In this document: in pieces, positions 33,201-36,200 of the stretch
How positions within the stretch are numbered: position 1 is the stretch's first letter
How the letters are laid out: every line of letters begins with the position of its first letter
Assembly: GCF_013167455.1 (NCBI RefSeq)
Contig: NZ_CP038328.1
DNA from: Escherichia coli O157:H7
GTDB taxonomy: Bacteria > Pseudomonadota > Gammaproteobacteria > Enterobacterales > Enterobacteriaceae
Reading direction: 5' to 3' (one strand)
Length of the DNA: 64,000 nucleotides
Program-made: the position numbers

Positions 33201-36200
33201 AGAATTTTCTTCACCCCAAAAAGGTTTGCGAGATCGTCCAGCGCACAAAGCGGTGTTGGGCGATAACCAGCTATTTTCTGGTGGAACTGGCGCGCCAGTT
33301 TGGCCTGGCTTTGCGAAAAGAGCGGTGATGTTTCGCCGTTGAAAAATTTGTTATCGGCGATATCAATCTTCAATGAGAAAACGGACATATCCTATCCTTT
33401 TGGCCTCTGGAAATAGAGGGCCGACCAGCTGATCGGCCCGAGGGGTTATTTCACGCGTTCTTGCGCTTCTTTCAGCAGTTGCTCGAGCAGTGCACCTGGT
33501 TTGGCGTATTTACGGGACAGGATCATCGCGGCGATGATATAAGGCTTCCAGCTGGCTTCTTTGTAGGTAGCGATACGGTATTTTTCGAATACGCCTTCAG
33601 TCACTTCCCCTTCTTTGCAGGATACGCCGCTGATATCAGCTGGCAGGCAGTGCATGTACAGGGCTTCGCCATCACGGGTCAGTTCCATCATCTCTTCAGT
33701 ACAATGCCAGTCTTTGTGTTGCGCGTTCTGTGCCAGACACTGTTTTTCCAGTGCTTTTAAGCCTTCGTGATCGTTAGCGCGCAGCAATTCGGTACGCTGT
33801 TCCATCACTTTGTAAGGTGCCCATGACTTCGGATAAACGATGTCTGCATCTTTGAACGCTTCTTCCATGCTGGTGACCTGACGGAAGCTACCGCCAGATG
33901 CTTTAGCATTGTTTTTCGCGACTTCTACTACATCCGGGATCAGGTCGTAGCCTTCCGGATGGGCCAGGGTGACATCCATACCGAAGCGAGTCATCAGACC
34001 GATGATGCCTTGTGGTACAGAGAGCGGTTTGCCATAGCTTGGAGAGTAGGCCCAGGTCATGGCGATTTTTTTACCTTTCAGGTTTTCCAGTGAACCAAAG
34101 TGTTCACGTAACCATGCCAGGTCAGCCATTGACTGAGTCGGGTGGTCAATATCGCATTGCAGGTTCACTAAAGCCGGACGCTGTGGCAGTACACCCTGCT
34201 TGTAACCGTCATCAAGTGCAGCGCCAACTTCACGCATATAGGCGTTGCCTGCGCCCAGATACATATCGTCGCGAATACCAATAGCGTCGGCGCAGAAGGA
34301 GATCATATTGGCGGTTTCACGCACGGTTTCGCCGTGAGCGATTTGTGATTTGCCTTCATCGAGATCTTGCTGTGCAAGGCCGAGCAGGTTAAGCGCGGAA
34401 GCATAAGAGAAGCGGGTACGAGTGGAGTTGTCGCGGAATACGGAAATACCTAATCCACTATTAAAGACTTTGGTTGAGATGTTTTCAGCACGCAGTGCTT
34501 TTAATGCTGCGGCAACGTCCAGTACTTGTTTCAGTTCATCTGGAGTCTGTTCCCACGTTAACAAAAAATCTTTCTCGTGAAGGTGAGAGGTCAGCGAATT
34601 GATATCCTTAATCAGCTCATTAACAGTTTTCATCATAAAGTCCCGGTAGTGGAATGACAGGCAAAGTGGTTTATTTCACTGTGACTTGCCAAAGTGATTG
34701 GTGTTTTCACAGCTATACCTGGGACTAACAATAAGTGTGCCAGAATTATCCACGGGGCTGCAAAAGACTAATTTGACGGATAATGTGTGGGGTTGATCAC
34801 AAATTGATGCCAGCTTCCGGTTGTTTGTAAAATACGAAAACGTTTGGCTTTTTTTATCGCGTTATTTATTTGCTGCTAAGTATCAGAAATAAGATAAAGG
34901 GACAGGCTATCCCTCGTCAGTTTGATAAACTCACCGCCATAATTCTCATATTGATATAGAAATGTGATATCTCTTCCATAATTTCATTAGAAAGTGATAA
35001 AAATCTTATGTTTTTATCAAAGCCAATTTCGCCTGAGTTAATATGATCATGATCTGTGAACCATCAACGTCTTCAATGATCGACTTTTAAGTAAGTCTGG
35101 AAGGTAAAGCTATGGAGCTTGCTACTACGCAGTCAGTATTGATGCAAATTCAACCGACAATTCAGCGTTTTGCCAGAATGCTTGCCAGCGTTTTGCAGCT
35201 TGAGGTTGAGATCGTTGATGAAAACTTGTATCGCGTCGCCGGAACGGGCGCGTATGGGAAGTTTCTTGGTCGCCAGTTGAGCGGCAACTCACGCCTGCTC
35301 TGCCACGTCCTGGAAACGAAAACTGAAAAAGTTGTGACACAGTCTCGCTTCGATCCCCTTTGCGAAGGTTGCGATAGTAAAGAAAATTGCCGCGAAAAAG
35401 CATTTCTGGGTACGCCTGTCATTTTACAGGATCGTTGTGTTGGGGTGATAAGTTTGATTGCCGTTACCCACGAGCAACAAGAGCATATCAGTGATAATTT
35501 ACGCGAATTTTCTGATTATGTTCGCCATATATCCACCATTTTTGTTTCGAAACTTCTGGAGGATCAGGGGCCAGGAGATAACATCAGTAAAATATTCGCG
35601 ACCATGATCGATAATATGGATCAGGGCGTATTAGTTGTTGATGATGAAAGTCGGGTTCAGTTTGTTAATCAGACTGCCTTAAAAACACTTGGTGTTGTGC
35701 AAAATAATATTATTGGGAAACCTATCCGTTTCAGACCATTAACATTTGAGAGTAATTTTACCCATGGACATATGCAGCATATTGTTTCGTGGGACGATAA
35801 AAGTGAATTAATCATTGGTCAATTGCATAACATTCAGGGCCGACAATTATTTTTAATGGCGTTTCACCAATCGCATACCAGTTTTTCTGTAGCAAATGCA
35901 CCTGATGAACCGCATATTGAACAATTGGTTGGCGAGTGCCGTGTTATGCGGCAATTAAAACGACTCATTAGCCGTATTGCACCCAGCCCATCCAGCGTTA
36001 TGGTGGTTGGTGAAAGCGGCACGGGTAAAGAAGTTGTCGCCCGTGCAATCCATAAGTTGAGCGGAAGACGGAATAAACCCTTTATTGCTATCAACTGTGC
36101 CGCGATTCCGGAGCAGCTTCTGGAGAGCGAACTGTTCGGTTATGTTAAAGGCGCATTTACTGGCGCTTCTGCCAACGGTAAAACAGGGTTGATTCAGGCG

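What the first reader, a model, noticed from the sequence alone, without database searches (positions are those of the whole stretch)
34726..34742. Weaker sigma54-like element upstream of ygeW, divergent from ygeV
The gene strand reads TGGCAC-ACTTA-TTGTT: perfect -24 but GT instead of the near-invariant GC at -12. It is the only sigma54-like match in the 475-bp ygeW-ygeV intergenic region and is correctly oriented, but may be non-functional or chance.
Basis: inference. Interest (0 to 1): 0.3.

Follow-up and report, generated by a model that had tools for sequence, protein, structure and literature searches.

The report
Known sigma-54 promoter of ygeW operon
The motif is the real, already published sigma-54 promoter in front of the E. 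coli ygeW purine/uric-acid breakdown operon, and its odd -12 base (T instead of C) is an old, conserved feature rather than a sign of decay.

Summary
The minus strand at 34743..34727 reads CTGGCACACTTATTGTT, which is a perfect -24 element with GT in place of GC at -12. It lies in the 475-bp ygeW-ygeV spacer, points at ygeW, and is the only sigma-54-like match there.

It is neither chance nor dead.
- This exact 17-mer is site OS30 in the sigma-54 ChIP-seq map of Bonocora et al. 2015, with weak occupancy (FAT 3).
- The same spacer is a strong RpoN-holoenzyme peak in genomic SELEX (Shimada 2021).
- Against a matrix built from 35 independent E. coli sites it scores 15.6 bits, the best hit in the 64-kb window. 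Only 37 of 20,000 shuffles of the spacer reach that score.
- The element is conserved upstream of ygeW in 40 proteobacterial species. The -12 base there is T, A or G, and never C.

It sits in a conserved layout. A palindrome TATCA-N3-TGA(T/G)A, probably the YgeV enhancer, is centred at about -234 and recurs upstream of the xdhA, ygfK and ygfT sigma-54 sites. A CRP-like site is centred at -77.5.

Not yet shown is a mapped transcription start, or dependence of ygeW transcription on RpoN or YgeV.

Verdict: already known, ordinary, low interest.

The parts
34727..34743 (-). Sigma-54 -24/-12 promoter element CTGGCACACTTATTGTT (GG at 34741/34740; -13 G at 34729; -12 T at 34728)
   Evidence: Read directly. 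It scores 15.6 bits and is the top hit in the window. It is identical to ChIP-seq site OS30 of PMC4591121. TGGCA..TTATTG.T is invariant in 21 Enterobacterales.
34716..34716 (-). Predicted transcription start, 12 nt downstream of the -12 base. Not mapped experimentally.
   Evidence: Inferred from the spacing rule. It agrees with the start predicted in PMC4591121, 19 bp downstream of the motif centre and 80 bp from the ygeW start.
34637..34716 (-). Predicted 80-nt 5' leader of ygeW
   Evidence: Folding is unremarkable, z = -0.18. RNAalifold finds no consensus structure. There is no Rfam match.
34786..34801 (.). CRP-like site TGTGATCAACCCCACA, centred at -77.5 from the predicted start
   Evidence: One mismatch to TGTGA-N6-TCACA. 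It is conserved at -76.5 to -78.5 in Enterobacterales and Aeromonas. PMC12507026 refers to a native Crp site in this spacer and shows glucose repression of uric acid degradation.
34944..34956 (.). Core enhancer-like palindrome TATCAATATGAGA (TATCA-N3-TGA(T/G)A), centred at about -234. Candidate YgeV binding site.
   Evidence: Exact matches to TATCAWWATGAKA in the window lie only upstream of the ygeW, ygfK and ygfT sigma-54 sites, against 0.05 expected. xdhA has a one-mismatch copy. The palindrome is conserved in 34 of 36 orthologous loci. It forms the invariant block in alignment A1.
34922..34968 (.). Flanking conserved half-sites around the core palindrome: ATCACA at 34963-34968 and TTTATCAA at 34922-34929
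   Evidence: Conserved block ATCACATTT-N3-TATCAATATGATAAT-N12-TTTATCAA in alignment A1. TATCA/TGATA positions are listed.
34995..35019 (.). Second inverted repeat TGATAAAAA-N7-TTTTTATCA, nearer to ygeV. It may be a further YgeV site or an autoregulatory site.
   Evidence: pair I2, 100% complementary. The TTGATAAAG block is partly conserved in A1.
33446..34636 (-). [quoted passage not shown]
35112..36890 (+). ygeV, the divergent gene for the sigma-54 activator (PAS, AAA+ Sigma54_activat domain with GAFTGA, HTH_8)
   Evidence: It is the divergent neighbour of ygeW in most of the orthologous loci where a homologue was found.
40648..40664 (-). xdhA sigma-54 site CTGGCGTAAATCTTGCC, same putative regulon. 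A one-mismatch copy of the palindrome lies at 40762-40774.
   Evidence: It is site OS29 in PMC4591121.
25091..25107 (-). ygfK sigma-54 site GTGGTGCGATTGTTGCT, same putative regulon. The palindrome TATCATAATGATA lies at 25276-25288.
   Evidence: It is site OS31 in PMC4591121.
10085..10101 (+). ygfT sigma-54 site TATGCCCGTTTATTGCA, same putative regulon. The palindrome lies at 9907-9919.
   Evidence: It is site OS32 in PMC4591121.

Best explanation
This is the enhancer-dependent sigma-54 (RpoN) promoter of the ygeW-ygeX(dpaL)-ygeY-hyuA-yqeA(arcC) purine/uric-acid catabolic operon.

Proposed mechanism:
1. RNA polymerase carrying sigma-54 binds TGGCAC-N5-TTGT as a closed complex that cannot open DNA by itself. 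Binding is shown in published work.
2. The divergently encoded AAA+ activator YgeV binds the conserved TATCA-N3-TGATA palindrome and its flanking half-sites about 235 bp upstream. It reaches the polymerase by DNA looping and uses ATP to open the promoter. Transcription then starts near 34716, giving an 80-nt leader. This step is inferred.
3. A CRP site held at a fixed position (-77.5) between enhancer and promoter probably supplies the bend, and with it cAMP/glucose control, in place of IHF. This step is inferred.

The T at -12 is an ancestral, tolerated variant of the -12 element. It goes with low in vivo occupancy but does not abolish holoenzyme binding.
For: - In vivo binding. The identical 17-mer is sigma-54 ChIP-seq site OS30, assigned to ygeW, with FAT 3 and a predicted start 80 bp from the gene (PMC4591121).
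- In vitro binding. RpoN-holoenzyme genomic SELEX gives a peak in the ygeV/ygeW spacer at 53-55% intensity (PMC8743547).
- Earlier prediction. A sigma-54 promoter upstream of ygeWXY is credited to Reitzer & Schneider 2001 by PMC10602906, and ygeW sits in the 'YgeV iModulon'.
- Score. It is the top matrix hit in the window at 15.6 bits. Only 37 of 20,000 spacer shuffles reach that score.
- Conservation. 40 orthologous loci (Enterobacterales, Aeromonas, Photobacterium, Betaproteobacteria) carry the element 55-110 nt (one at 228 nt) upstream of ygeW. The core is invariant in alignment A1. Within E. coli the exact 71-mer is present in 1774 genomes, and the 17-mer is unchanged in three divergent strains.
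- Activator. YgeV has the Sigma54_activat domain, the GAFTGA motif and HTH_8, and is the divergent neighbour in most loci.
- Shared enhancer. The palindrome lies upstream of all four sigma-54 sites of the cluster, against 0.05 expected by chance, and is conserved in 34 of 36 loci.
- CRP. The site is conserved at -77.5 plus or minus 1. Glucose repression of the pathway is relieved when the native Crp site is replaced (PMC12507026).
- Genetics. ygeV is needed for uric acid degradation (Iwadate & Kato 2019, as cited).
- Precedent for GT at -12. The confirmed pspA promoter reads TTGTA.
Against: - No mapped ygeW transcription start, and no RpoN-, YgeV- or GG-mutant dependence of ygeW transcription, turned up in the papers searched.
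- ChIP occupancy is low (FAT 3). The same study shows that many sigma-54 sites bind without detectable transcription.
- EcoCyc listed no promoter here in 2015, since the EcoCyc column for OS30 is blank.
- The YgeV binding site is inferred only from shared and conserved sequence. The enhancer distance of about -234 is long.
- No IHF consensus is present.
- The role of CRP (activating bend or repression) is not established.
- A -10-like GATAAT abuts the -24 element in E. coli, so a sigma-70 start nearby is not excluded.
Confidence: 0.85

Rival explanations
1. It is a genuine sigma-54 binding site that is transcriptionally unproductive. The holoenzyme parks there, but the weak -12 element or the lack of an active activator means that ygeW is not transcribed from it.
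For: - ChIP occupancy is low (FAT 3).
- PMC4591121 finds that most sigma-54-bound sites show no transcription when sigma-54 is overexpressed.
- No start site is published.
Against: - The element, the enhancer palindrome and the divergent activator gene are conserved together across about 40 species.
- ygeW co-varies with the other sigma-54-preceded genes of the cluster in the YgeV iModulon.
- ygeV and the ygeW-operon genes are each required for uric acid degradation.
Confidence: 0.07
2. ygeW is transcribed mainly from a CRP-dependent sigma-70 promoter in the spacer. The sigma-54 element would be secondary, or would compete with that promoter.
For: - A conserved CRP-like site lies at 34786-34801.
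- The pathway is glucose-repressed.
- A -10-like GATAAT lies at 34745-34750, and reads TATAAT in Citrobacter.
Against: - The consensus scan finds no sigma-70 promoter serving ygeW. The only minus-strand hit overlaps the start codon.
- GATAAT has no -35 partner. It would put CRP near -56, which is off the usual class I positions. It is not conserved beyond E. coli and Citrobacter.
- The CRP site keeps a fixed distance to the sigma-54 element in species that lack GATAAT.
Confidence: 0.06
3. [quoted passage not shown]
For: - A hit of this score somewhere in 64 kb is expected in about half of shuffles.
- The C at -12 is missing.
Against: - Placement and orientation give p of about 0.002.
- ChIP-seq and genomic SELEX both show binding.
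- The element is invariant across E. coli and conserved in 40 species, while the surrounding spacer diverges.
Confidence: 0.02

Closest known systems
E. coli pspA promoter (PspF-activated sigma-54 promoter)
   Same: It has a perfect TGGCAC -24 element and GT instead of GC at -12 (TTGGCACGCAAATTGTA). It is experimentally confirmed and bound in ChIP-seq.
   Different: - ChIP occupancy is much higher (FAT 21 against 3).
- The activator is PspF, which lacks a sensory domain.
- From my own knowledge, pspA uses IHF, whereas ygeW has a CRP-like site and no IHF consensus.
xdhA, ygfK and ygfT sigma-54 promoters of the same purine-catabolism cluster (sites OS29, OS31, OS32 of PMC4591121)
   Same: They lie in the same window, carry the same TATCA-N3-TGA(T/G)A palindrome 100-175 bp upstream of the -24 element, and belong to the same putative YgeV iModulon.
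   Different: They have a canonical GC at -12 but degenerate -24 elements (TGGCGT, TGGTGC, TATGCC). ygeW shows the reverse pattern. ChIP FAT is 11, 26 and 3 respectively.
prpBCDE promoter with divergent prpR (sigma-54, activator and CRP)
   Same: A divergent activator gene sits next to a catabolic operon, and a sigma-54 promoter is combined with catabolite control through CRP in the shared spacer. This comparison rests on my own knowledge of Lee, Newman & Keasling 2005, not on a tool result. The prpB sigma-54 site is OS01.
   Different: The pathway is different (propionate) and so is the activator's sensory domain. No position for the CRP site was compared here.
DioR sigma-54 regulon of Clostridiales (PMC6615313)
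   Same: A sigma-54 activator is predicted to control ygeW-ygfK-ssnA-ygeY, dpaL, xdhC and pbuX homologues, which is the same pathway under sigma-54 control in a distant phylum.
   Different: It involves a different activator family member and different enhancer sequences, and it rests on comparative-genomic prediction only. I did not examine those promoters.

Membership tests
Sigma-54 (RpoN) -24/-12 promoter | Conserved GG within TGGCAC at -24/-25 | tested here: met
   TGGCAC lies at 34742..34737 on the minus strand. TGGCA is invariant in 40 orthologous sites.
Sigma-54 (RpoN) -24/-12 promoter | GC within TTGCW at -12/-13 | tested here: not met
   The sequence reads TTGTT, so the G is present and the C is replaced by T. 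Across 40 orthologues the -12 base is T in 22, A in 13, G in 5 and C in none. Four of the 39 published E. coli intergenic sites listed also lack the GC (pspA, glnH, hydN, ygeW), so this feature is preferred rather than obligatory.
Sigma-54 (RpoN) -24/-12 promoter | Fixed spacing: GG and the -12 dinucleotide 10 bp apart (TGGCAC-N5-TTGC) | tested here: met
   TGGCAC-ACTTA-TTGT, an exact N5 spacer.
Sigma-54 (RpoN) -24/-12 promoter | Intergenic, oriented towards a gene, at a plausible distance | tested here: met
   The predicted start at 34716 is 80 nt upstream of the ygeW ATG. Across the orthologues the 17-mer ends 65-110 nt (one at 228 nt) upstream of the ATG.
Sigma-54 (RpoN) -24/-12 promoter | Bound by sigma-54 or its holoenzyme | not testable with these tools
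   Published evidence exists: ChIP-seq site OS30 with FAT 3 (PMC4591121), and an RpoN-holoenzyme genomic SELEX peak of 53-55% (PMC8743547).
Sigma-54 (RpoN) -24/-12 promoter | Cognate AAA+ enhancer-binding protein and upstream enhancer sites | tested here: met
   YgeV has Sigma54_activat (E = 8.6e-71), GAFTGA and HTH_8. A conserved palindrome is shared by four promoters. Actual binding of YgeV to it has not been tested.
Sigma-54 (RpoN) -24/-12 promoter | Activator- and RpoN-dependent transcript starting about 12 nt downstream of -12 | not testable with these tools
   No start-site or mutant data were found in the papers searched.
CRP-regulated promoter | 22-bp site with TGTGA-N6-TCACA core | tested here: met
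   TGTGATCAACCCCACA has one mismatch and is conserved at -76.5 to -78.5 in about 25 loci. PMC12507026 names it as the native Crp site. CRP binding and the sign of its effect are not tested.
Sigma-70 promoter for ygeW | -35/-10 hexamers with 16-18 bp spacing, upstream of the start codon | tested here: not met
   The only minus-strand hit (34660..34632) overlaps the ATG. GATAAT at 34745-34750 has no -35 partner and is not conserved.
Known structured RNA leader (Rfam) | Match to an Rfam covariance model in the spacer or leader | tested here: not met
   There is only one sub-threshold chance hit, at 14.8 bits against a gathering score of 53.5.

The most novel reading that the evidence does not exclude
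The missing C at -12 may be selected for rather than tolerated. In 40 orthologous ygeW promoters spanning gamma- and betaproteobacteria the -12 base drifts among T, A and G but is never the C that sigma-54 prefers, while the neighbouring bases are invariant.

A weakened -12 contact would loosen closed-complex occupancy. That would fit the low ChIP signal seen despite good in vitro holoenzyme binding. Occupancy, and therefore output, would then depend on the phase-locked CRP site at -77.5. This would make the promoter a sigma-54 promoter tuned by catabolite state as well as by its purine-sensing activator.
Probability: 0.15. Interest if true: 0.4.

Novelty: already known. Interest (0 to 1): 0.15.

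Why it matters
The ygeW operon is part of the anaerobic uric-acid/purine degradation pathway of gut bacteria, which is now studied for gout and hyperuricaemia. That work includes engineered E. coli Nissle strains that replace this very spacer (PMC12507026).

A clear map of the promoter helps anyone trying to induce or rewire the pathway. The map has four parts: the sigma-54 core, a probable YgeV enhancer palindrome shared by four promoters, a fixed CRP site, and possibly a PurR-like box.

The promoter element itself is not a discovery. It has been in the literature since at least 2015.

Tried and rejected
- Structured leader or riboswitch: rejected. Rfam finds nothing in the spacer. The predicted 80-nt leader folds no better than shuffles, z = -0.18. 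RNAalifold finds no consensus structure in 17 species.
- IHF site between enhancer and promoter: no WATCAR-N4-TTR match on either strand.
- Sigma-70 promoter for ygeW: the only scan hit overlaps the start codon.
- An apparent sigma-54-like motif, TTGGCCCGGGNAATGAA, upstream of ygeW in Bacteroidales and Riflebacteria loci turned out to be the coding end of an upstream ygeY-like gene (GFGPGNE). It is not a promoter.
- A GC variant at -12 in E. coli: none of 5,426 genomes carries the 71-mer with T changed to C.
- Supplements of the bypass-sigma-54 ChIP study (PMC4551910): they do not mention ygeW, ygeV, xdhA or ygfK.
- Papers not held: Reitzer & Schneider 2001 and Iwadate & Kato 2019 could not be read. 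Both are cited only through papers that quote them.
- 'Never C at -12' as a statistic: only about 3-4 independent substitutions are implied by the tree, so the absence of C is suggestive and not significant by itself.

Full report
**What is there.** The window is an E. coli (O157-like) chromosome segment that carries the yge/ygf/xdh purine-catabolism cluster. ygeW (a knotted carbamoyltransferase) runs 33446..34636 on the minus strand. ygeV (a sigma-54 activator) runs 35112..36890 on the plus strand. The two are separated by a 475-bp spacer. On the ygeW strand, 34743..34727 reads CTGGCACACTTATTGTT. This is a perfect TGGCAC at -24, an exact 5-nt spacer, and TTGT where the consensus has TTGC.

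**Is it more than chance?** I built a weight matrix from 35 published E. coli intergenic sigma-54 sites, taken from Table 1 of Bonocora et al. 2015 as read. The four sites of this gene cluster were left out.
- The ygeW element scores 15.6 bits, the highest of about 128,000 positions in the window. The xdhA and ygfK sites score 11.9 and 12.0.
- In the spacer the next best hit is 2.2-2.3 bits, so it is indeed the only candidate.
- 37 of 20,000 dinucleotide shuffles of the spacer reach the score on the gene strand. By contrast, 155 of 300 shuffles of the whole window reach it somewhere.

The score alone is therefore not remarkable. The placement is.

**It is already published.**
- Bonocora et al. 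2015 (PMC4591121) list site OS30: ChIP-seq peak at 3004190, FAT 3, motif CTGGCACACTTATTGTT, gene ygeW, predicted start 80 bp from the gene. This is the identical 17-mer and the same geometry that I derive (predicted start at window 34716).
- Shimada et al. 2021 (PMC8743547) find an RpoN-holoenzyme genomic SELEX peak in the ygeV/ygeW spacer at 53-55% relative intensity. That is comparable with rpoH and glmY.
- Lamoureux et al. 2023 (PMC10602906) credit Reitzer & Schneider 2001 with sigma-54 promoters upstream of xdhABC and ygeWXY. They also place ygeW in a 'YgeV iModulon'.
- GT at -12 has a confirmed precedent in pspA, which reads TTGGCACGCAAATTGTA.

**Conservation.** A scan of species-representative genomes returned 80 ygeW loci.
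- In 40 proteobacterial loci (Enterobacterales, Aeromonas, Photobacterium, Betaproteobacteria) the best sigma-54 hit within 400 bp upstream of ygeW scores 12.9-16.5 bits. In all but one locus the 17-mer ends 65-110 nt from the ATG (one locus at 228 nt), which puts the predicted start 55-98 nt upstream.
- T, G, G, C, A at -26 to -22 and T, T, G at -15 to -13 are invariant.
- The -12 base is T in 22 loci, A in 13, G in 5 and C in none.
- In an alignment of 21 Enterobacterales spacers the promoter core is one of a few invariant islands in otherwise diverged sequence.
- Within E. coli the exact 71-mer is found in 1774 genomes and a T-to-C version in none. Three divergent strains vary around the 17-mer but not inside it.

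Only about 3-4 independent changes at -12 are implied by the tree, so 'never C' is suggestive rather than statistically firm.

**Architecture around it.**
- Enhancer. The same alignment shows a conserved block, ATCACATTT-N3-TATCAATATGATAAT-N12-TTTATCAA. Its core palindrome is TATCAATATGAGA in E. coli, at 34944-34956, centred at about -234. Exact matches to it in the window occur only upstream of the ygeW, ygfK and ygfT sigma-54 sites, and xdhA has a one-mismatch copy, against 0.05 expected by chance. The palindrome is present 162-265 bp upstream of the predicted start in 34 of 36 orthologous loci.
- Activator. YgeV has PAS, a Sigma54_activat AAA+ domain with GAFTGA, and HTH_8. It is the divergent neighbour of ygeW in most of the loci where a homologue was found. 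I therefore read the palindrome as the YgeV enhancer. This is inference, since no binding data were found.
- CRP. Between enhancer and promoter lies a CRP-like site, TGTGATCAACCCCACA, at 34786-34801 and centred at -77.5. It is held at -76.5 to -78.5 in Enterobacterales and Aeromonas, and is absent at that position in Photobacterium and Betaproteobacteria. PMC12507026 refers to the native Crp site in this spacer. It shows that uric acid degradation is glucose-repressed unless the spacer is replaced by constitutive promoters.
- Other features checked. No IHF consensus is present. No sigma-70 promoter that could serve ygeW passes the scan. There is no Rfam match in the spacer, and the predicted leader folds no better than shuffles with no consensus structure across species.

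**Mechanism.** What is shown, by others, is that sigma-54 holoenzyme binds here in vivo and in vitro. What is inferred is the following.
1. YgeV, activated by an unknown purine-related signal, binds the palindromes.
2. It loops to the closed complex, helped by a CRP-induced bend.
3. It opens the promoter, and transcription of ygeW-dpaL-ygeY-hyuA-arcC starts near 34716.

General background on the role of the -12 element in holding the closed complex comes from PMC5095919. ygeV and the operon genes are each required for anaerobic uric acid degradation.

**On 'weaker'.** In vivo occupancy is lower than at xdhA and ygfK (FAT 3 against 11 and 26). Match to the consensus and in vitro binding are better. 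The cluster's promoters each deviate from consensus somewhere. ygeW deviates at -12, and the others deviate at -24.

**What remains open.** No experimentally mapped start and no RpoN, YgeV or GG-mutant dependence of ygeW transcription turned up. The rival readings are a silent binding site, a CRP-dependent sigma-70 promoter, and chance. I rate them at about 0.07, 0.06 and 0.02.

**Verdict.** The feature is already known and is a typical enhancer-dependent promoter. The modest additions from this work are the cross-species evidence, the shared candidate YgeV palindrome, the phase-locked CRP site, and the consistent absence of C at -12.

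Noticed in passing
window 34834-34849 (and 9744-9759): A PurR-box-like palindrome, AGCCAAACGTTTTCGT, lies between the enhancer and the CRP site, centred at -125.5. 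It has one mismatch to ANGCAAACGTTTNCNT, a consensus I wrote from memory that closely resembles the ACGCAAACGTTT(G/T)C.. consensus quoted in PMC4576408. The only other hit in the window with one mismatch or fewer lies in the uacT-ygfT spacer, against 0.19 expected. The box is conserved only in E. coli, Citrobacter, Atlantibacter, K. indica and Trabulsiella. A purely computational PurR regulon in PMC4576408 already lists ygeW.
   Followed up: partly
window 34745-34750 (minus strand): A sigma-70 -10-like hexamer, GATAAT, abuts the -24 element. It reads TATAAT in Citrobacter and is not conserved in other genera. It has no -35 partner.
   Followed up: partly
window 33418-33439, 30886-30905, 28473-28498 (minus strand): GC-rich hairpins lie in the ygeW-dpaL gap, in the ygeY-hyuA gap (followed by a T run) and after arcC/yqeA. 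They may be internal attenuators or stabilisers, plus the terminator at the end of the operon.
   Followed up: no
window 21163-21179 (minus strand, inside ssnA): The second-best sigma-54 matrix hit in the window is CTGGCACGACTGGCGCA at 13.3 bits. It is intragenic and in the sense orientation. It is not listed in the main text or tables of PMC4591121.
   Followed up: partly
window 35112-36890 (ygeV): YgeV has PAS, AAA+ and HTH_8 domains but no receiver domain. Residues 1-150 have no Pfam match and contain a Cys-rich stretch, CEGCDSKENC. PMC9426417 nevertheless calls it an 'orphan response regulator', renames it IsrR, and reports that indole induces it.
   Followed up: partly
L021, L022 (Aeromonas): In Aeromonas the ygeV homologue lies upstream of ygeW on the same strand rather than divergent. 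The sigma-54 element (TTGAT at -12), the palindrome and the CRP site are all kept.
   Followed up: partly
L040-L078 (Bacteroidales, Riflebacteria and other MAG loci), about 110-380 nt upstream of ygeW: The recurrent motif TTGGCCCGGGNAATGAA looks sigma-54-like but is the conserved coding end (GFGPGNE...HAPNEK) of an upstream ygeY-like gene. In these phyla ygeW is therefore not the first gene of its operon.
   Followed up: yes
window 34995-35019: A perfect 9-bp inverted repeat, TGATAAAAA-N7-TTTTTATCA, lies about 95-115 bp upstream of the ygeV start. It has the same TGATA/TATCA half-sites as the enhancer core, so YgeV may regulate its own gene.
   Followed up: no
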